The translations under genes were made by a program, and so were the position numbers. DNA of 64,000 bases, from the NCBI RefSeq assembly GCF_003334385.1, contig NZ_QOWN01000010.1; one strand, given 5' to 3'. Under the pieces are notes generated by a model. The model saw nothing but the letters and a program-made list of their open reading frames with translations. It did not search any database and was not told the origin of the DNA. Source of the DNA: Escherichia coli (GTDB taxonomy: Bacteria > Pseudomonadota > Gammaproteobacteria > Enterobacterales > Enterobacteriaceae). Below are positions 12,485 through 21,550 of this stretch, piece by piece. Position 1 is the stretch's first letter; the number at the start of each line of letters is the position of its first letter.

Positions 12485-14665
12485 TTACTCTTTCTCGGAG
12501 TAACTATAACCGTAATAGTTATAGCCGTAACTGTAAGCGGTGCTGGCGCGTTTAATCACACCATTGAGGATAGCGCCTTTAATATTGACGCCTGCCTGTT
12601 CCAGACGCTGCATTGACAAACTCACCTCTTTGGCGGTGTTCAAGCCAAAACGCGCAACCAGCAGGCTGGTGCCAACAGAACGCCCCACGACCGCGGCATC
12701 ACTCACCGCCAGCATCGGCGGCGTATCGACAATCACCAGATCGTAATGGTCGTTCGCCCATTCCAGTAATTGACGCATCCGATCGCGCATCAGCAGTTCA
12801 GACGGGTTAGGTGGCACCTGACCGCGAGTAATCACATCAAAGCCTCCTTTGCCAAAATGCTGGATCACTTTGTTGAGCTCATCTTTACCTGCCAGATATT
12901 CCGACAAGCCATGTTCATTACTCACGGTAAACAGGTTATGCGAATAACCACGGCGTAAGTCGGCATCAATAAATAACACTTTTTGATCGGACTGGGCGAT
13001 CACCGCTGCCAGAGTTGAACTGACAAACGTTTTACCACTGTCTGGCGTCGCACCGGTGATCATTAGAATGTTATTCTCCGTCTCCATCATAGCGAAATGC
13101 AGACTGGTTCGTAGCGCACGTACGGCTTCCACAGCAGAATCCGCCGGGTTATCCACCGCCAGGAAGGGGATATTTTTAGTACGATGGCGCTGCTGATTAG
13201 AAAATAAATTTTTCTTACGCAGACGGGTGCGTTTATCCAGCCACTCGGACATTGGGATAGTGGCATAAACGCTGATGCCGTGCTCTTCCAGTTGTTCCGG
13301 GGCTTCTACACCACGACGCAACATCGCACGCGCCAGCACGGCACCCACAGAAATAAACAGGCCAAGAATAAAACCAAGCACCACGTTCAACGCTTTTTTC
13401 GGTTTCACTGGCTGCGGCTGAGTGACTGCCGGGTCGATAATCCGCACGTTACCAATGGCACTGGATTTCGAAATACTCAACTCCTGCTGGCGGTTAAGTA
13501 ATTGCAGATATACCGCACGGCCCGCTTCTACGTCACGACTTAAACGCAACACTTCCTGTTGGGTGGAAGGCATTGCCGATACCCGCTTATTCAGGCGTTT
13601 GCGTTCTTGCTCCAGCGTCTGGCGTTTTTCCAGCAGCGCACGATAAGTTGGGTGATCTTTCTTATACAGCTGGGAGATCTCTGCCTCGCGGAAGGTCAGC
13701 TCATTGAGTTGATTATCAACGTTCACAATCTGCTCAAGAACGGCTTTGGCTTCCAGGTTAAGGTCAACCGAATCGCGCTGCTGGCGATAAACGTTGAGTT
13801 TTTCTTCCGCTTGGTCCAGCTCGCTGCGCACTTCAGGTAACTGGCGCTGTAAGAATTCAAGGCTTTGTGAATCCTGCGCCGCCTGGCGAGCGATATTCTG
13901 TTGCAAATAGTTGTTAGCGATGCTGTTCAGAATACGAGTAATCAACTGGGGATCATCACCAGTCATGGTAAGTTCCAGCATCCCGCTTTCTTTACTGCGT
14001 TCGCTAACGGTAAAGGTTTCCTGCAATGCGTTAATCGCTTCCAGTTCGGTACGCTGGCTCAGGACAAACTGTGTTCCTGGTTTGGCCTTAATGTCCGCGA
14101 TAGTCAGCGCAACGCCATCTTTTTCCAGACGCTGGCCGACCATACCATTGACGGTGAACTCTTCACCTTCCAGTGTATAGTGGCCGTTTTCCCCAACCGT
14201 GAGTGTCAGTTGCTGATCCTGACCATTCAGTTGTGGAATATGCATCCAGCTGATCGCCAGCTCACCTGGTTTTTCTTTGGTTAATCTCGCCCAGCCGCGA
14301 CCCACAATCGGAAAATACTTCTGCTCAACTATGTCGCGCAGATTCAGTTCAGCAATGGTTTTACCGAGAATCATGCGCGATTGCAGCAGTTGGATCTCCG
14401 GTGCAGACTCGGGCGATGAGTTAGGGATCATATCGCTCAGGCCGCTGAGAATGGCGTTGCCCTGTTTTTGCTCAACCTGGACCAGAGTATCTGCCTGATA
14501 AATTGGTGTGCTTAACAGCGAGTAAGCGACAGCGATCAGCGTGAATAACGCGGTCACGCTGATAATAAACTTACGGTGATCCCATAACTCGCCGACCAGA
14601 CGAAGCAGATCGATCTCATTTTCCTGAGTGCTGCCTGGTGGCGTATTCATATTTTTAGTTGTCAT
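12485..14665 (-). CDS. etk: tyrosine autokinase Etk (Wzc paralogue, group-4 capsule)
   Basis: 726 aa; Walker A GATPDSGKT; C-terminal Tyr cluster YSYGYNYYGYSYSEKE. Confidence 0.95.
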   Translation of the reverse strand: MTTKNMNTPPGSTQENEIDLLRLVGELWDHRKFIISVTALFTLIAVAYSLLSTPIYQADTLVQVEQKQGNAILSGLSDMIPNSSPESAPEIQLLQSRMILGKTIAELNLRDIVEQKYFPIVGRGWARLTKEKPGELAISWMHIPQLNGQDQQLTLTVGENGHYTLEGEEFTVNGMVGQRLEKDGVALTIADIKAKPGTQFVLSQRTELEAINALQETFTVSERSKESGMLELTMTGDDPQLITRILNSIANNYLQQNIARQAAQDSQSLEFLQRQLPEVRSELDQAEEKLNVYRQQRDSVDLNLEAKAVLEQIVNVDNQLNELTFREAEISQLYKKDHPTYRALLEKRQTLEQERKRLNKRVSAMPSTQQEVLRLSRDVEAGRAVYLQLLNRQQELSISKSSAIGNVRIIDPAVTQPQPVKPKKALNVVLGFILGLFISVGAVLARAMLRRGVEAPEQLEEHGISVYATIPMSEWLDKRTRLRKKNLFSNQQRHRTKNIPFLAVDNPADSAVEAVRALRTSLHFAMMETENNILMITGATPDSGKTFVSSTLAAVIAQSDQKVLFIDADLRRGYSHNLFTVSNEHGLSEYLAGKDELNKVIQHFGKGGFDVITRGQVPPNPSELLMRDRMRQLLEWANDHYDLVIVDTPPMLAVSDAAVVGRSVGTSLLVARFGLNTAKEVSLSMQRLEQAGVNIKGAILNGVIKRASTAYSYGYNYYGYSYSEKE

Positions 14666-14684
14666 CGTATTTTATAAACTCAAA

Positions 14685-15131
14685 TTACCGGCTGAGGCGC
14701 TTCGCCCATTCCTGACTGGCGCGCTCCAACATACCGTAGACATGTTCAAATGCGTCCTGACTTTTACGATAGGGATCCGGGATCTCTTTCTGTTCCAGCC
14801 ATTGCCCAAACAGCATTGTCTTCCCGCGGACCTCGGGAGCAATTGCGGTAACCTGAGCAATATGTTCCGACTCCATTGCCAGAATCAGATCGTAATTTCG
14901 TGCCATCTCAGCAGTGAGCTTACGTCCGGCATGTCCTTCAAGAGATACGCCATGATTAGCGGCAACATCTGCCGCTGTCGCATCTGCAGGGTGTTTTACC
15001 AGACCATGAACACCTGCCGATTTGACTTTTACGCCCGGCAGACGTTTACGCAGCAAGCGCTCGCCAATGGGCGAACGGCAAATGTTGCCGGTACAAACCA
15101 CCAGGATTGAGTTAAATTTTAGTTGGGCCAT
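14685..15131 (-). CDS. etp: low-molecular-weight protein-tyrosine phosphatase Etp
   Basis: ORF 14685..15143; start at [21 protein letters not shown] (CX5R P-loop). Confidence 0.93.
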
Positions 15132-16258
15132 GTTTGAATCCACCGTGAAGTCTCTGTCAGGTCATGCACCCCGGAAATCGTCGGTACCAGCAGAGAAATC
15201 ACACGGTTCCAACGAGCCAGCGGCGCGGTAGTGACATAAACAATGTCGTAAGGTTCAAGCTGGAATTCCGTTCCGAGTATCATTGCCGATGCGTCCTTCG
15301 CATTCAGCTGATAAATATTGGCGATTTTGCCATTCTGCTTGTTTTGCGTTGCACGAATAACAAAAATCCCCGTCGCATCAGCGACATCCTGATTCATACC
15401 CTCAGCGTTACCCAGCGCTTCCGCCAGGGTCATACCGCTGCGGTCCATTTTCAGCGTGCTCTGTTTACCCACTTCACCCATCACGAAGACTTTCAGATCA
15501 TCGTTGCGCGGAATAAATAAAATATCGCCCGGGTGCAGCAGTTTGTTCTGGCGCAAGTCGCCACGCTGCATCAGCGCATAGAGGTTCACTTTGGTCTTTA
15601 CGCCATTCTGGGTGAGCACCACGTTGCGCCAGTCTGCATCTGCGGTCAGACCGCCCGCGGCGTTAATCGCATCCATGATGGTCAGAGGAATATTGGTAAT
15701 CGGCTGCTGACCCGATTTGCTGACTTCGCCGGTGACGTACGCTTTTTGCGATCGGAACGCCGCGACGCTGACATCGACTTGCGGGCTTTCAATGACTGAA
15801 TCGAGACGCGCTGTAATCTCGTTGCGTACCTGGGTAAGTGTTTTCCCGGCCACTTTCAGGCGACCAATATAGGGGTAGAAAATCGCACCATCGGCGTTAA
15901 CCCAGTTGCCGGTATCACTGGCGCTACGGTATTGCCCTGCGGGGGTGGTTAGTTCCGGGTGATCCCAGACCGTAACCATCAACACATCACCAATCCCGAT
16001 ACGATATTCATAGTTTGCGATTTGCTGCTCCAGCTCCGGGTTAGCCTGCGACATAATCGGTTTGGCGCGCAACTGATCAATCAATCCTGGCGTGACGGGA
16101 TAGATATTGACCATTTTGTCCAGGTCATACTGATTGTCAGGTAGTTCAATGACATCCTTGTTACTGGTCGATAAATTCTGACCAGGAACAAGGGTACATG
16201 CTGTCAAAGACAGAACAGCCAATGTCAGTACCGAAAACTTAAAAATGTTCTTTTTCAT
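15119..16258 (-). CDS. gfcE: outer-membrane polysaccharide export lipoprotein (Wza paralogue)
   Basis: ORF 15119..16279; start at [21 protein letters not shown] lipobox. Confidence 0.92.
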
Positions 16259-16303
16259 TGGTTTATATTTATCAGTCAATGTAATGTTATGAATTACGTC
16301 AGG

Positions 16304-18400
16304 TTATTGTCCAACCGGTACTTCTCGCTCTGCCGTCATTGGATAGAGCTGGTATTTGCGTGACAGCATTTGTCCACCATCACGCGTCAATGGTGTCCAC
16401 GAAACCACCGCGCGGTTGCGGTTAGGTCCAATGGTCATCAAGTCGAATGGAATCGAGATATAAAAACCTTTACTAAAGCCGCCTTCGCCGTAGTCATCTT
16501 TAGATACGTTACTGATTGCCGCCCATACCCCTACCGCCACGCCGCTGTCAAAGCGTTTGGCGACGTCGATCGTTGCGCCTTTATCTTTTGCCAGATATTG
16601 CCCAACGCTAAGTTTCATCAGTACGCCATTGAGCGTCGGCGGGTTCCAGTAAGCCGTCACGAAACCTGTTGGCGTGGAATAATCGGTGAAACGCATCATG
16701 TTGTCCCAGTCACGTTGCTTCACGTAGTTAACGTCCACACCCAGCGCCCAGCAGGCATCTAGCGGGCGATAAAGCAGCTCGGAACCGACACCGGCGTACA
16801 TCGTTTCCAGATAACCGCCATACACCTGGCCATAGAAACCATTGCCTAAGTCAGCAAAATAGTTCGCCTGCAAGTTGTTGAGATAAACGTCATTGCGAAC
16901 GTAGTCACGGATATGCGTGCGCACGCGGGGCAGGGTAGAGTCCGCGGGCAACAGCGAAGACTTAAACTTGTCGTAGTTGTTGTAAATATTGGTGAAAATA
17001 CCGCCATCAAGCAGCAGGTGGTCGGTAAACCAGTAGCGGGCACTGGACATCAGCCCCAGCTGGAACATATAGAAATCTTCCGGGCCGCCCAGCGACTGTG
17101 AAAGTGTTGGGTTGAAAGAGTAGCTAAAGCGATCTTCACGAATACGGTAGCCCCGACCAAAGGCAGAAAGATCTTCAGCTTCAACACGTTGTTGTTGCAG
17201 TGGCTCTGATTGACCAGGCGCTGTACCTGCCAGCTGTTTGCGCAGGCTGGCTACGTCGGTTTCGGTAGTCACCATCGCCATATGCTCGCGCTTTTGCGTC
17301 ACGCTAATCTTCTCAACGCCTTGCGGCAGGTTATTCACCAGAATCCGGTTGGCACGATCGACCGCTTCACGAGAGTCACGGTATTTGTATTGCTGACCAG
17401 ACATATACAGTGTCTTATCGCGTAGCTGAATTTCTGGCGCGTCAAAGCCCGCGTTATACTTCAGGGCGGTAAGTTGGTTTGCTACCGTGGTGTACTGCAA
17501 TCCTTCAGATTCAGGCGCAGGTTGATATGCCGGTTTTGGCGTATCGCGCAGGGCAGGGCGCAGATCGTTGAAATTGGTCCGTAACGTGAAGCCAAACATC
17601 AACGTGTTACCGCGTTCATAACTCAGGTTGAGATCTGCCCAGCTGGCTGCGCGATAAACTGCGCCGACGTTGAAATGGCTTGCCTGAGGCAGTTTGCCAG
17701 CGAAATCATTCTGGTAATTGTTTCCATCGTATTCGAGTTTCAGACGCAGGGGATTCCACGGCGTTTGATACTCAATGCCGCCAAAGATGGAAGCCGGGCC
17801 ACGAAAGATATCGCTAAAGCTGATATCGCCCGCATCGTGAGACTCTGCGCGATGACAATATTTATCGCTCACCCGGCAAAACGGGTTGGTAATATTGCCC
17901 GCATTACCGGCGTAGCCCCATGCCATCCCGAGGGTGAAATCAAATGGCCCCGCTTGCTTGCTGGCCACCAGATACTCACCGTCAAACAGACCCGTACCAG
18001 CAATATCACGTTTACCAAACGCCACTTGCGGTAGCCAGTAACCTTCTTCCCACAGGCGAAGTTTAAAATCGAATGATTTGTCTTTGTATGACTGATCGCC
18101 GCTGAAATCTTCCCACTGGCTATATTTGCGTGTGCGCACATCCGTATAACGAATGGTGCCTTCCAGCCATGGGAACAGCGCCACGGAGGTGGAGTAGAAC
18201 CGGTATTGATCGTTATCCCGGTAGTTGACGCTGAATTCACCTTCCGGTGCGATGCGCGCATTTGGCATCTGCAACAATCCTGTGCCGCCAAAGTCTGATT
18301 GCGACGAACCCAGCGGATCCGGGTAGGTTAATACTTCAGCATGACAGGCACTGGAGACGGCAATGGCCAGGCAGCTTAAAAGATAAGAATTCTTCTTCAT
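16304..18400 (-). CDS. gfcD: group-4 capsule outer-membrane beta-barrel protein GfcD (YjbH family)
   Basis: 698 aa with signal peptide, recognised sequence. Confidence 0.92.
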
Positions 18401-19146
18401 CAGTCAGGAACACGTTGCGTTAAAACAGACACAATCTGGTCATTTAAATCAGCATATTTTTCGGGCAGTACATGCGCAGAAAAGCCCAACCAAAGCTGGC
18501 TGCCAGGCGGTGGTTCCACATGTCTTTTATTCCACAGGGCAACAGGGGCGACGACAGTCTCACCCTCAGGCGTAATCACCATAACGTTATTCTTGTCCGC
18601 GCCTGCAAGGCGGGGGTGATCTTGCAGATAATCGGTAACGCTACGGCCTGCCTGCCAGGGCAATTGCCCGGCCCCAGAAACCGCACCCAGCAGAGTAATA
18701 GTCACCGGACGCTGTACGGTATAGAGCGTATAGTCCCCGACCAACGGGGGATTGCTGTTCTCATCCACTCGTACAAAATCAGGGTCCAGTTTGACCGGTA
18801 AGCGACCAGTGATATTGAGATTGAGTAACTGCTGGCGCACGGATTTAATCGTTGCCGCCACATCGTCGTCAGCTTCTGCTTCCCAGGAAGCAAGCTGTGC
18901 CATGACATGTTGGTAGTCTTTAAGCGCTTTAGCTTTCGCCGCAGAGTCGGTCAGCAAGGCACCAGGCCACCAGAGGCGATCGCGCAGTTGCGGTTGTGTC
19001 ACCAACTGGACAACATTTTCCACGGGGCCAACGGAAAGTGTCTGTTGTTCGCCAGGCAGATAAATAGTCACCGTTCCTTGCGCAAAGGCATGGGGTGTCA
19101 TTACGTAAAGTACGCTGGCAATGAAATACGACTGTAATTTATTCAT
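18400..19146 (-). CDS. gfcC: group-4 capsule periplasmic protein GfcC
   Basis: 248 aa with signal peptide; overlaps gfcD start. Confidence 0.92.
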
Positions 19147-19787
19147 GGTGCGGGTTTAAGAAACGTCATTTCTACGGGAATAACCCCTGCGCCTAACATT
19201 TGCCGACTTTGACGAACCTGGCCAGTAGCCGAATCGACCCAGAATGTGTTTTGCCACTGTTTTTCTGGCCGCGTGGAAGTCACCTCTTCCTGCCAGACAT
19301 TACACAGCACATTGCGACCCGCAATATTCAGCGTCTCTAATCCAGCAAAGGAAAAAGTAGAACTCAGGGTCGCAGAGCGAAAATGGTTGTCTTCACTCCA
19401 GAGAATATCGCGCGTCCAGCGGCTGCCATCTTTTATTGCCAGCGCGTTACGCAGAGGGTCCTGCCCGGAATTTGTCACTTCCAGCAGATTATTATTAAGT
19501 TTGACGGTTTTTAAAAGACGTCCATTGTGGGTAACCAGCATGGCGTTATCCTGGGATAACCATTTGCTTTGTTCTTGTTCTATATATCCCAGTACCACAA
19601 AGATTCGTTGCCCTTCATTAAGGCGTAAATACATAGTGGAATAAGGCAACGCCTGGATCTGCTGATCCGCTACGGTGATATCCTGATTATCGAAAAGGCT
19701 GGCGCGAAATGTATCGACCATACTTTGCTGGCTGTGCGTACATCCCGCAAGAAATAGTGCGAAAATCGATAAAATAAGAGGGCGCAC
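19143..19787 (-). CDS. gfcB: group-4 capsule lipoprotein GfcB (YjbF family)
   Basis: 214 aa; MRPLILSIFALFLAGC lipobox. Confidence 0.92.
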   Translation of the reverse strand: MRPLILSIFALFLAGCTHSQQSMVDTFRASLFDNQDITVADQQIQALPYSTMYLRLNEGQRIFVVLGYIEQEQSKWLSQDNAMLVTHNGRLLKTVKLNNNLLEVTNSGQDPLRNALAIKDGSRWTRDILWSEDNHFRSATLSSTFSFAGLETLNIAGRNVLCNVWQEEVTSTRPEKQWQNTFWVDSATGQVRQSRQMLGAGVIPVEMTFLKPAP

Positions 19788-19893
19788 CTTTAATCCTTGA
19801 AAGGTTAATTAAAAAAATGCAAATCTCTAAAGCCCGGTACGAATATCGCAACCGGGTATCATTTAACTTTAATTTCGACGCGTTAAAGCAGTA

Positions 19894-20199
19894 TTAGCGT
19901 GTAGTGGACGTGGTGGTTGAGGTGTTATGAGAACCGCCATCGCCACTGTCATTTGCTGCAACAACTGCCAACGTCGCCACACCAACAGCCGTTGCCACAC
20001 CGACAACTGTCGCCGTGCCGACAGCGCCAGCAGCCACGCCACCAGTGGTAGTAGCAGTCGTGGTTGCGCCGGTAGTGGTCGTTGTGGTGCCAGTAGTACC
20101 CGTCGTTGCCTCGGTCCCGTTTGTTGCTTCAGGGGCAGCAAACGCAGCTGGCGTCGTCAACATGAAGGCCATAAGGATTGCAGAAAGCTTGTGTTTCAT
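19894..20199 (-). CDS. gfcA: threonine-rich small secreted/membrane protein GfcA
   Basis: ORF 19894..20217; start at MKHKLSAILMAFMLTTPAAFA; long Thr/Gly/Ala/Val low-complexity tract. Confidence 0.85.
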   Translation of the reverse strand: MKHKLSAILMAFMLTTPAAFAAPEATNGTEATTGTTGTTTTTTGATTTATTTGGVAAGAVGTATVVGVATAVGVATLAVVAANDSGDGGSHNTSTTTSTTR

Positions 20200-20640
20200 A
20201 ACTTTTCCTTTATTCATCGCATGGACAATACGTACGCTTGAGATCAGGATTGTCTACTTTGAGTATAACATCCTTGTGAAATCTCCCTTTCCTCATACCG
20301 CTTGCACTATATACTGCGGGTAGGAAAGGCGCGCAGAGGGAAATATAAGATTGTTAACTATCCCCCTCTGGAAATACGACTTGTGAGCATAAGATAAATC
20401 TTAGCAAAATACAAATTAAAGATAAGGAAATTGTTACGAAAGCTATTAATTATTGTTGGTAATATAGTTTCAAGTGGTACTATAACTGGCTGTTAAATGG
20501 CATTTATAACTATTAGGTGCAGAGATATTCGCTTAAATGGATTAGTTTCTTTGTGGAAAAGTAACTGATGTTATAATGTATGATGTTGACTATTGCACTA
20601 TTCCAATAAAACCAGTCAGCTTTAAACAAGCAGCGTCATA

Positions 20641-20853
20641 TTAAGAGAGATAAACATTTGCCGCTGTTGGTCCTCGCAGGCCATTTACGCGGCAAAATTC
20701 CACACGTAATCCTGGTATAAGCACTTCTGCGTCGCGGGGAGTGAATGCGGAAATATGGACCTGAACTTCTTTACGACCGTCGGAGGGGATAATGAATCCT
20801 TTGCCGCTTTTGCGATCAAAGGTTTTGACAATTCCTGTCATTTTACGGGACAA
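20641..20853 (-). CDS. cspH: cold-shock-like protein CspH
   Basis: 70 aa cold-shock domain, [23 protein letters not shown]. Confidence 0.93.
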
Positions 20854-21138
20854 ACAAATTCCTTACTGAAAATACTGCGCTGCACTATACGGGGTTAATA
20901 AAATAAAGCCAGCGATATTTAAGACCGCCGGACGGCTAAAATAAAATTTGCTTAATCTCAATTATCATGCGTTAATAGCTGCGTCGGTTTGAAAGACAGA
21001 CAGCATACAAAGTAGTTTACTAAAGCAGTTCTCATTATCAGGCATTATCCCCTTCTTTTGAGTCTCTCTCCTGAACACTAAGTAGTTTCTGTATTAAAGC
21101 CCTGTTTGCCGAAAGGCCCAAAATGAAGGAAGTAAAAT

Positions 21139-21351
21139 ATGTCTAATAAAATGACTGGTTTAGTAAAATGGTTTAACGCAGATAAAGGTTTTGGCTTTAT
21201 CACTCCTGATGATGGCAGCAAAGACGTTTTCGTCCATTTCACCGCCATCCAGAGCAATGAATTCCGCACGCTGAACGAAAATCAGAAAGTTGAATTTTCT
21301 ATTGAGCAGGGGCAACGTGGCCCCGCGGCAGCGAACGTTGTTACGCTCTAA
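21139..21351 (+). CDS. cspG: cold-shock protein CspG
   Basis: 70 aa; [24 protein letters not shown]1 motif. Confidence 0.95.
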
Positions 21352-21361
21352 GGTTGCCATT

Positions 21362-21550
21362 ATTACTCAACATCTCCATTTCCGCTGTCCATGTTGTCAT
21401 GGTTCACAGTACCGCACATCGGCATTCGATGTGACGGAGCGAAACCCTTTGGGCGCTAAGTGTATTTTTTGTAAATCGACGATGATCACCTTTGATAACG
21501 TCGCGCTGCAAATACGCACTGACCATGCGCCGCTGGATTTCACAAAATAA
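21362..21550 (+). CDS. ymcF: small Cys-rich (CxCC...CxxC) zinc-ribbon-like protein; start codon uncertain, possibly non-ATG
   Basis: Conserved frame ..ITQHLHFRCPCCHGSQYRTSAFDVTERNPLGAKCIFCKST..; the only in-frame ATG lies inside cspG in another frame. Confidence 0.5.
   Translation: MTQHLHFRCPCCHGSQYRTSAFDVTERNPLGAKCIFCKSTMITFDNVALQIRTDHAPLDFTK

What the first reader, a model, noticed from the sequence alone, without database searches (positions are those of the whole stretch)
19894..20199. GfcA contains an extreme Thr/Gly/Ala/Val low-complexity tract
After a signal-like N-terminus the protein is dominated by runs such as TTGTTGTTTTTTGATTTATTTGG and VGTATVVGVATAVGVATLAVV. The repetitive DNA makes this tract prone to length variation, and the region throws up several spurious ORFs on both strands. 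It may be a mucin-like, possibly glycosylated, capsule-associated polypeptide.
Basis: seen in the sequence. Interest (0 to 1): 0.25.

Follow-up and report, generated by a model that had tools for sequence, protein, structure and literature searches.

The report
Known Thr-rich capsule protein GfcA
This is the already described E. coli gene gfcA, a small exported threonine-rich protein needed for the group 4 (O-antigen) capsule; its odd composition is real, but its DNA is not repetitive and its length is almost the same in thousands of strains.

Summary
Window 19894-20199 (minus strand) is E. coli gfcA (ymcD), 101 aa, with 30% Thr and 71% Thr+Ala+Gly+Val. It is the lowest-complexity ORF in the window and the first gene of an intact gfcABCDE-etp-etk operon.

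- **DNA repeats:** the longest exact direct repeat is 8 nt, no more than codon shuffling gives, and Thr uses all four codons.
- **Length across strains:** about 3,600 of 5,426 complete E. coli genomes carry gfcA. All 59 sampled full-length hits are exactly 306 nt. At most 1.5% can have a tract indel of 6 nt or more.
- **Variants found:** an 18-nt tandem duplication (four genomes) and a 15-nt microhomology deletion (two genomes), both in the N-terminal Thr tract. E. albertii is 21 nt shorter.
- **Selection:** two alleles differ by 12 synonymous and 3 non-synonymous codons.

GfcA is a divergent member of the YjbE family (PF11106). The family shares the signal peptide, a Gly/Ala/Val hydrophobic segment and a GDG-polyThr C-terminus. 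The long N-terminal Thr tract is an Escherichia-specific insertion.

The Thr richness and the idea of O-antigen modification are already published (Larson 2021). Glycosylation remains untested. Already known; low interest.

The parts
19894..20199 (-). gfcA (ymcD) coding sequence, 101 codons plus stop (stop at 19894-19896)
   Evidence: ORF list. It is 100% identical over 306 nt to RefSeq gfcA in more than 2500 genomes. Two alleles differ by 12 synonymous and 3 non-synonymous codons in this frame.
20206..20210 (-). Shine-Dalgarno AAGGA, 6 nt before the ATG at 20199. It favours the 101-aa start over the in-frame upstream ATG at 20217.
   Evidence: Read directly from the sequence. RefSeq annotates the 306-nt CDS.
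20137..20199 (-). Predicted Sec signal peptide, aa 1-21 (MKHK / LSAILMAFMLTT / PAAFA, cleavage after AFA)
   Evidence: Sequence features. A-x-A followed by AP is conserved across YjbE-family members. AF2 predicts a helix at 3-14. The cleavage site is inferred, not tested.
20044..20136 (-). N-terminal low-complexity Thr/Gly/Ala tract, aa 22-52. Its Thr-rich core (aa 26-52) lies at 20044-20124.
   Evidence: 20-residue window entropy falls to 1.2 bits. AF2 pLDDT is 33-38 with no secondary structure. The tract is absent from other YjbE-family proteins. It is the only site of indels within E. coli and against E. albertii.
19954..20043 (-). Gly/Ala/Val/Thr hydrophobic segment, aa 53-82 (GGVAAGAVGTATVVGVATAVGVATLAVVAA)
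   Evidence: Kyte-Doolittle 19-residue maximum is 2.16. The Hessa sum is +0.98 kcal/mol, which is borderline for membrane insertion. AF2 predicts a helix at 59-84 with pLDDT 50-60. No indels occur here in any allele.
19972..20025 (-). Degenerate 18-nt x3 direct repeat encoding the hexapeptides AVGTAT / VVGVAT / AVGVAT inside the hydrophobic segment
   Evidence: the repeat finder family D1, copies 83% and 72% identical to the reference. It contains the only 8-nt exact repeat of the CDS.
19897..19953 (-). C-terminal tail, aa 83-101 (NDSGDGGSHNTSTTTSTTR). This is the GfcA version of the family-wide GGGDGSNTGTTTTTTTSTTR motif.
   Evidence: Alignment A4 has invariant G and T columns here. hhalign against YjbE aligns this part.
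19869..20141 (-). Spurious 90-aa ORF in another frame of the gfcA strand
   Evidence: ORF list. Frameshifted database 'proteins' P0008, P0019 and P0028 run into this frame.
19927..20323 (+). Two spurious antisense ORFs (19927-20241, 104 aa; 20015-20323, 102 aa)
   Evidence: ORF list. The antisense frames of the CDS hold 1 and 2 stops only.
12485..19787 (-). Rest of the operon: gfcB 19143-19787, gfcC 18400-19146, gfcD 16304-18400, gfcE about 15119-16258, etp about 14685-15131, etk 12485-14665
   Evidence: ORF list. NCBIfam hits for gfcE, etp and etk. RefSeq annotation of identical loci. GfcB is 39% identical to YjbF.

Best explanation
The feature is the known E. coli gene gfcA (ymcD), the first gene of the group 4 capsule operon gfcABCDE-etp-etk. 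It encodes a 101-aa precursor with four parts: a Sec signal peptide (aa 1-21), a disordered Thr/Gly/Ala tract (aa 22-52), a 30-residue Gly/Ala/Val-rich hydrophobic segment (aa 53-82) and a short acidic-Gly/poly-Thr tail.

Shown here. It is a divergent member of the YjbE family (PF11106). The low complexity lies at the protein level only, because synonymous codons are mixed and the DNA has no significant repeats. The reading frame is under purifying selection. The length is fixed at 306 nt in at least 98.5% of the roughly 3,600 complete E. coli genomes that carry it. The few indels all fall in the N-terminal Thr tract, which is an Escherichia-specific insertion. The hydrophobic segment and the GDG-polyThr tail are the conserved family core.

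From the literature. The protein acts in trans and is required for the capsule.

Inferred. After export and signal-peptide cleavage, the 80-aa polypeptide serves as a non-enzymatic accessory subunit of the GfcA-B-C-D module. The hydrophobic segment holds it in a membrane or in the LolA-like GfcB. The Thr-rich stretches act as flexible, hydroxyl-rich, composition-constrained spacers facing the periplasm or the polysaccharide. It is not a phase-variable repeat locus.
For: Identity and context.
Composition statistics.
No DNA repeats beyond chance.
Length constancy: 59 of 59 hits are 306 nt; 45 of 45 best hits to a 94.8% allele are 306 nt; 3556 of 3604 genomes are at least 95% identical over the 111-nt tract.
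Purifying selection, 12 synonymous against 3 non-synonymous codons.
Family link: P0033 sits at the gfcA position of a complete gfc-type operon and hits PF11106; hhalign of the GfcA group against YjbE gives probability 93%, E 3e-7; GfcB is 39% identical to YjbF; 7 of 9 aligned members hit PF11106; the conserved core and the lineage-specific tract are seen.
Disorder plus one helix: AF2.
Function in trans: the EPEC gfcA deletion loses buoyancy and capsule and is complemented by pgfcA; gfcA was the most highly expressed of the surface-structure genes tested (PMC3853201).
GfcB has a LolA-like fold and GfcB, GfcC and GfcD interact (PMC8592465).
Against: GfcA itself has no Pfam or NCBIfam hit, so family membership rests on synteny, profile comparison and an intermediate sequence.

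The membrane-anchor step is weak. The Hessa sum is about +1 kcal/mol. The residues after the segment are acidic (NDSGDG), which goes against the positive-inside rule. The E. coli paralog YjbE has no membrane-competent segment (+5.2). AF2 confidence is low (mean pLDDT 45.8).

The location of the mature protein (inner membrane, periplasm, outer membrane or surface) has not been determined in any paper I could read. Rare slippage-type indels do exist.
Confidence: 0.6

Rival explanations
1. Mucin-like glycoprotein carrier. The Thr-rich stretches of exported GfcA are O-glycosylated, for example with O-antigen units. The glycopeptide is handed by GfcB/GfcC to the two-barrel outer-membrane protein GfcD and becomes the anchor or primer of the capsule. 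2021.
For: The protein has an exported, disordered region with 30% Thr. The poly-Thr C-terminus is the most conserved element of the whole YjbE family, which suggests the Thr residues themselves matter. The gene always sits next to homologs of gfcB, gfcC and gfcD. The speculation is stated in PMC8592465. The anchor of the group 4 capsule is unknown.
Against: No glycosyltransferase or O-oligosaccharyltransferase lies in the operon; all seven genes are accounted for. No glycopeptide has been reported in the papers read. The N-terminal Thr tract is dispensable at family level, being absent from YjbE and P0033. The other published model for GfcD proposes a lipid-anchored polysaccharide as cargo, not a peptide.
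Confidence: 0.15
2. Secreted self-assembling or membrane-active peptide. The Gly/Ala/Val segment acts as a glycine-zipper or amyloid-like element. It would oligomerise in or on the outer membrane after export through GfcD, or form pores. It would not act as a simple inner-membrane anchor.
For: The segment is rich in small residues with a hexapeptide periodicity (AVGTAT/VVGVAT/AVGVAT). It is only marginally hydrophobic for Sec stop-transfer. Overexpressed YmcD lowered intracellular D-alanine in a transport screen, which fits membrane perturbation (PMC10299036).
Against: No Pfam glycine-zipper family matches, even at E up to 10. AF2 predicts a single helix, with low confidence. There is no solved homolog. 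The D-alanine effect was not statistically robust for YmcD and used a tagged overexpression clone.
Confidence: 0.1
3. Contingency (phase or length-variable) locus. Repetitive DNA in the tract slips often, giving strain-to-strain length variation or on/off switching of the capsule operon.
For: Two slippage-type events were found in the tract. One is an exact 18-nt tandem duplication in four O169:H41-type genomes. The other is a 15-nt deletion between ACCAC microhomologies in two genomes and in the decaying P0002 contigs. E. albertii differs by 15+3+3 nt.
Against: There is no perfect repeat longer than 8 nt, which is not above the shuffled expectation. Thr codon usage is mixed: ACG 10, ACC 9, ACT 7, ACA 4. 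Of genomes carrying the gene, 98.5% or more share the same length. The variants found are in frame and lineage-restricted. Inactivation of the locus in nature occurs through IS1/IS5 insertion or whole-operon absence instead.
Confidence: 0.03
4. Cis-acting leader. The Thr-codon-rich ORF works like the thr-operon leader peptide, coupling translation speed to transcription of gfcBCDE-etp-etk, and the peptide itself is irrelevant.
For: It is the first ORF of the operon, with runs of up to six consecutive Thr codons.
Against: No terminator or attenuator hairpin was found after gfcA and there is no Rfam element. The signal peptide, the hydrophobic segment and the C-terminal motif are conserved at the amino-acid level across genera. 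Substitutions are mostly synonymous. The deletion is complemented in trans from a plasmid.
Confidence: 0.02

Closest known systems
E. coli GfcA / YmcD (RefSeq WP_001295358.1, 'threonine-rich inner membrane protein GfcA')
   Same: The nucleotide sequence is identical over the whole CDS. It occupies the same position between cspH and gfcB and is 101 aa long.
   Different: Nothing differs; this is that gene. Unlike K-12, the window has no IS1 element 33 bp upstream of the start codon.
YjbE (PF11106, 'exopolysaccharide production protein YjbE'), first gene of the Rcs-regulated yjbEFGH operon
   Same: Both are small exported proteins with an A-x-A/AP signal-peptide end, a low-complexity Ala/Gly/Ser/Thr body, an AVGV...A hydrophobic stretch and a GDG-polyThr C-terminus. 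Both lie directly upstream of YjbF-, GfcC- and YjbH-family genes.
   Different: GfcA does not reach the Pfam HMM. It carries an extra N-terminal Thr tract of roughly 17-22 residues, a longer and more hydrophobic segment, and a degenerate tail (SHNTSTTTSTTR against SNTGTTTTTTTSTQ). It is linked to a Wza/Wzb/Wzc-type export set, which yjbEFGH lacks.
Ser/Thr-rich O-glycosylated disordered regions of exported bacterial proteins (for example streptococcal membrane-associated proteins, PMC12041528)
   Same: It is an extracytoplasmic, disordered, hydroxy-amino-acid-rich stretch next to a membrane-interacting segment.
   Different: No cognate glycosyltransferase is known or encoded nearby, and no glycan has been shown. 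The resemblance is one of composition only (title and abstract seen; the paper was not read in full).
Simple-sequence contingency loci of pathogens
   Same: It is a low-complexity coding tract in a surface-structure operon, with occasional in-frame duplication or deletion.
   Different: It lacks perfect tandem DNA repeats and population-level length polymorphism.

Membership tests
E. coli gfcA (ymcD) | Sequence identity to the annotated gene | tested here: met
   100% identity over 306 nt to gfcA in K-12 MG1655 and many other genomes. 2511 genomes are at least 99% identical.
E. coli gfcA (ymcD) | First gene of gfcABCDE-etp-etk, between cspH and appA | tested here: met
   ORFs and NCBIfam hits. 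Annotated identical loci.
E. coli gfcA (ymcD) | Required for group 4 capsule formation | not testable with these tools
   Known from the literature only. The EPEC gfcA deletion is unencapsulated and is complemented in trans (PMC3853201).
YjbE family (Pfam PF11106) | Match to the family HMM | tested here: not met
   GfcA gets no hit even at E up to 10. Seven of nine aligned relatives do hit, including P0033, which sits at the gfcA position of a gfc-type operon.
YjbE family (Pfam PF11106) | Profile-level similarity to YjbE | tested here: met
   hhalign of the GfcA group against E. coli YjbE gives probability 93% and E 3e-7 over 73 columns. The sequences are low-complexity, so this result deserves caution.
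YjbE family (Pfam PF11106) | Located directly upstream of YjbF-, GfcC/YjbG- and YjbH-family genes | tested here: met
YjbE family (Pfam PF11106) | Signal peptide, G/A/V segment and GDG-polyThr C-terminus | tested here: met
   Alignment A4. The GfcA tail is a degenerate version of the motif.
Contingency / simple-sequence-repeat locus | Perfect or near-perfect tandem DNA repeats | tested here: not met
   Best TRF array is 21 nt x2.3 at 74%. The longest exact repeat is 8 nt, equal to the codon-shuffle mode.
Contingency / simple-sequence-repeat locus | Frequent length polymorphism among strains | tested here: not met
   Six variant genomes were found and the upper bound is 1.5%.
Mucin-like / O-glycosylated exported protein | Exported disordered Ser/Thr-rich region | tested here: met
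   Export is inferred from the signal peptide.
Mucin-like / O-glycosylated exported protein | Cognate glycosyl- or oligosaccharyl-transferase encoded with it | tested here: not met
   The operon contains only gfcA-E, etp and etk. The neighbours are csp genes and appA. A transferase encoded elsewhere is not excluded.
Mucin-like / O-glycosylated exported protein | Glycan covalently attached | not testable with these tools
   This needs mass spectrometry.
Single-pass inner-membrane protein (the RefSeq product name) | Hydrophobic segment competent for stop-transfer, with positive-inside flanks | tested here: inconclusive
   Kyte-Doolittle 2.16 predicts a membrane segment, but the Hessa sum is +0.98 kcal/mol. 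The C-terminal flank is acidic with a single terminal Arg. The AF2 helix at 59-84 has pLDDT 50-60.
Glycine-zipper membrane domains (for example PF13488, PF05433) | Match to a family HMM | tested here: not met
   No such hit at E up to 10.

The most novel reading that the evidence does not exclude
GfcA and YjbE peptides are the actual cargo of the GfcBCD/YjbFGH outer-membrane machines. In this reading the LolA-like GfcB carries the Gly/Ala/Val segment across the periplasm, and GfcD inserts or exports it through its lateral gate. The conserved poly-Thr C-terminus (and, in Escherichia GfcA, the extra N-terminal Thr tract) is the attachment or binding site that tethers O-antigen polysaccharide to the cell. 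That would make it a small proteinaceous capsule anchor, a bacterial 'proteoglycan core'.
Probability: 0.1. Interest if true: 0.6.

Novelty: already known. Interest (0 to 1): 0.1.

Why it matters
The gene, its 30% threonine content and the idea that it might be glycosylated and exported via GfcD are all in the literature, so the finding adds no new biology. This check does settle three smaller points.

- **Not a repeat locus:** the tract is not a hypermutable DNA repeat, and its length is conserved across thousands of genomes.
- **Where change happens:** the rare indels, and the difference from E. albertii and from the YjbE family, all map to the N-terminal Thr tract. The hydrophobic segment and the GDG-polyThr tail are the conserved core.
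- **Annotation hazard:** the stop-free alternative frames produce spurious ORFs and frameshift chimeras in public protein sets.

The molecular role of GfcA and YjbE remains an open, testable question in group 4 capsule assembly.

Tried and rejected
- **Pfam and NCBIfam scans of GfcA:** no hits.
- **phmmer against 1.84 billion representatives:** only 14 hits, almost all Escherichia fragments or frameshifted calls. Composition filtering probably hides relatives.
- **Word-indexed searches:** these returned mostly fragments, and the main 101-aa cluster is not in that collection under the exact sequence.
- **PDB sequence search:** nothing relevant, best E 0.21 to a permease.
- **AF2 with a 5-sequence alignment:** mean pLDDT 45.8. 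I did not take this model to fold search, because a low-confidence model gives meaningless matches.
- **Promoter and terminator scan of 19600-20900:** nothing found, so no attenuator after gfcA.
- **Rfam:** only the cspA thermoregulator upstream.
- **24-nt length difference in strain TUM10008:** I suspected gfcA, but it lies in the cspH-gfcA spacer.
- **Variant P0002:** it looked like a natural tract variant. Its 3' end is replaced and gfcBCD are deleted, so it is a decaying pseudogene.
- **Peleg et al. 2005:** the paper could not be read because it is not held.
- **Not run:** I did not scan genome contigs or metagenome contigs for gfcB neighbours, as the cost was not justified for a known gene.

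Full report
**What is there.** The interval 19894-20199 is a minus-strand ORF of 101 codons. It translates to MKHKLSAILMAFMLTTPAAFAAPEATNGTEATTGTTGTTTTTTGATTTATTTGGVAAGAVGTATVVGVATAVGVATLAVVAANDSGDGGSHNTSTTTSTTR. Megablast against 5,426 complete E. coli genomes finds it at 100% identity under the RefSeq feature 'gfcA: threonine-rich inner membrane protein GfcA'. An AAGGA Shine-Dalgarno lies 6 nt before the ATG at 20199. This supports the 101-aa start over the in-frame ATG at 20217. Downstream on the same strand lie gfcB, gfcC, gfcD, gfcE, etp and etk. The window therefore carries an intact group 4 capsule operon. It lacks the IS1 element that sits 33 bp upstream of gfcA in K-12.

**Is the composition more than chance?** Yes. 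Thr is 30 of 101 residues. Thr, Ala, Gly and Val together are 72 of 101, and 81% of the predicted mature part. Against the long ORFs of the same window, the binomial probabilities are 5e-15 for Thr and 2e-18 for the four residues together. The ORF has the lowest entropy and twice the Thr fraction of any of the 106 six-frame ORFs of 80 aa or more. They follow from the near absence of stop codons in the other frames. Public protein sets contain frameshifted GfcA chimeras that run into these frames (P0008, P0014, P0019, P0028).

**Is the DNA repetitive?** No.
- TRF reports only a 21-nt x2.3 array at 74% match.
- The repeat finder reports an 18-nt x3 unit at 72-83% identity. It encodes AVGTAT/VVGVAT/AVGVAT in the hydrophobic segment.
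- The longest exact direct repeat in the CDS is 8 nt. That is the mode of 300 codon-order shuffles, and 130 of the 300 shuffles give 9 nt or more.
- Thr uses ACG 10, ACC 9, ACT 7 and ACA 4.

**Does the length vary among strains?** Hardly.
- **Carriage:** 3,608 of 5,426 genomes carry gfcA. The rest, such as Nissle 1917 and ATCC 11775, lack the whole operon, and cspH abuts appA.
- **Sampled lengths:** all 59 full-length hits, sampled evenly down to 94.8% identity, span exactly 306 nt. All 45 best hits to that divergent allele do too.
- **Tract-only query:** with the 111-nt tract as query, 3,556 of 3,604 genomes are at least 95% identical, which excludes any indel of 6 nt or more. At most 53 genomes (1.5%) could differ.
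- **Variants found with the shorter E. albertii allele as bait:** an exact 18-nt tandem duplication (TACTACTGGCACCACAAC, 107 aa) occurs in four O169:H41-type genomes. A 15-nt deletion between two ACCAC microhomologies (96 aa) occurs in two genomes.
- **IS1 insertions:** two further length differences are IS1 insertions into the last codons.
- **E. albertii:** it lacks 15+3 nt in the tract and 3 nt in the tail.

All indels lie in the Thr-rich parts. The signal peptide and the hydrophobic segment have none. The window allele and the 94.8% allele differ at 12 synonymous and 3 non-synonymous codons, as expected for a translated gene under purifying selection.

**Family.** GfcA has no Pfam or NCBIfam hit, and phmmer against 1.84 billion representatives finds almost only Escherichia sequences.
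- One hit, P0033 (86 aa), sits at the gfcA position of a complete gfcABCDE-etp-etk-type operon in another enterobacterium. It matches PF11106 (YjbE).
- A profile of the GfcA group aligns to E. coli YjbE with hhalign probability 93% and E 3e-7.
- GfcB is 39% identical to YjbF.
- Seven of nine aligned relatives match PF11106. The two Escherichia GfcA alleles do not.

The alignment shows what is shared. The shared parts are the signal peptide ending A-x-A/AP, a Gly/Ala/Val-rich segment, and the C-terminus GGGDGSNTGTTTTTTTSTTR. The gfcABCD/yjbEFGH relationship itself is already stated in the literature.

**How it probably works.** Papers show that an EPEC gfcA deletion loses buoyancy and capsule and is complemented from a plasmid. 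They also show that gfcA is the most highly expressed of the surface-structure genes tested (PMC3853201). GfcB has a LolA-like fold, and GfcB, GfcC and GfcD interact at the outer membrane (PMC8592465).

From the sequence I infer a Sec signal peptide cleaved after AFA, giving an 80-aa product. AF2 gives a low-confidence model (pLDDT 45.8) with helices only at 3-14 and 59-84 and no structure in the Thr tracts.

The hydrophobic segment passes Kyte-Doolittle (2.16). It is borderline on the Hessa scale (+0.98 kcal/mol) and is followed by acidic residues. The paralog YjbE has no membrane-competent segment (+5.2). The RefSeq label 'inner membrane protein' is therefore plausible but unproven.

My best reading is a non-enzymatic, exported accessory polypeptide of the GfcABCD module. 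Its hydrophobic segment would be held in a membrane or by GfcB, and its Thr stretches would be flexible, composition-constrained regions.

The glycosylated, GfcD-exported carrier model is not excluded. However, no transferase is encoded in the locus and no glycopeptide has been reported. A cis-acting Thr-leader model is rejected by the trans complementation, by amino-acid-level conservation, and by the absence of an attenuator. A contingency-locus model is rejected by the repeat and length data.

**Comparison with what is known, and verdict.** The gene, its Thr content (30%) and the speculation that it is modified by O-antigen and exported through GfcD are published. A later paper still calls GfcA 'entirely uncharacterized'. 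Nothing here departs from the known gene. The finding is a correct reading of a known oddity, with an over-interpretation of DNA repetitiveness. Novelty: already known. Interest: about 0.1.

The only forward-looking point is that the conserved poly-Thr C-terminus and the hydrophobic segment, rather than the conspicuous N-terminal tract, are the parts to target when testing whether GfcA/YjbE peptides are cargo or anchors of the GfcBCD/YjbFGH machines.

Noticed in passing
window ~20232 (33 bp upstream of the gfcA ATG); loci L001, L014, L015, L016: The gfcA neighbourhood is a recurrent IS target. K-12-type strains have IS1 33 bp upstream of the start. Two strains have IS1 inserted in the last codons of gfcA (C-terminus TTR changed to T(T)VMTPTY). 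Two have IS5 upstream, one of which removed all but the last 38 nt of gfcA. The window itself has none of these insertions.
   Followed up: partly
window ~20640 (break point) to the end of etk at 12485; locus L013: About a third of complete E. coli genomes (for example Nissle 1917 and the type strain ATCC 11775) lack the entire gfcABCDE-etp-etk operon. In them cspH directly abuts appA, and the annotated CDSs overlap by about 13 nt.
   Followed up: partly
window 20983-21405 (+): There is a strong Rfam match to the cspA thermoregulator (RF01766, 159 bits, E 5e-43). It is presumably the cspG leader and coding region, upstream of the gfc operon.
   Followed up: no
window 19972-20025 (-): The hydrophobic segment of GfcA is built from three degenerate hexapeptide units (AVGTAT / VVGVAT / AVGVAT), encoded by an 18-nt x3 repeat at 72-83% identity. 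No allele examined shows a copy-number change here.
   Followed up: partly
L003 9910-10011 and L004 5285-5386: In the gfc-type operon that carries P0033, a 33-codon ORF is called between the gfcD and gfcE homologs. The window has only 24 nt between gfcD and the longest gfcE ORF, so it has no counterpart.
   Followed up: no
proteins P0008, P0014, P0019, P0028, P0030: Metagenome and draft-genome protein sets hold many GfcA 'variants' that are frameshift chimeras. They switch into the stop-free alternative frame (…QRLLVWRRWQLLQQMTVAMAVLITPQPPRPLHANTALTRRN). This is an annotation hazard of the tract.
   Followed up: partly
literature: PMC10299036: Overexpressed YmcD (GfcA) was one of five clones selected in a D-alanine export screen and lowered intracellular D-alanine. 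This may reflect membrane perturbation by the Gly/Ala/Val segment rather than transport.
   Followed up: no
L007 (strain TUM10008), cspH-gfcA spacer: A 24-nt deletion relative to the window lies in the non-coding spacer upstream of gfcA, not in the gene. Its effect on the operon promoter is unknown.
   Followed up: partly
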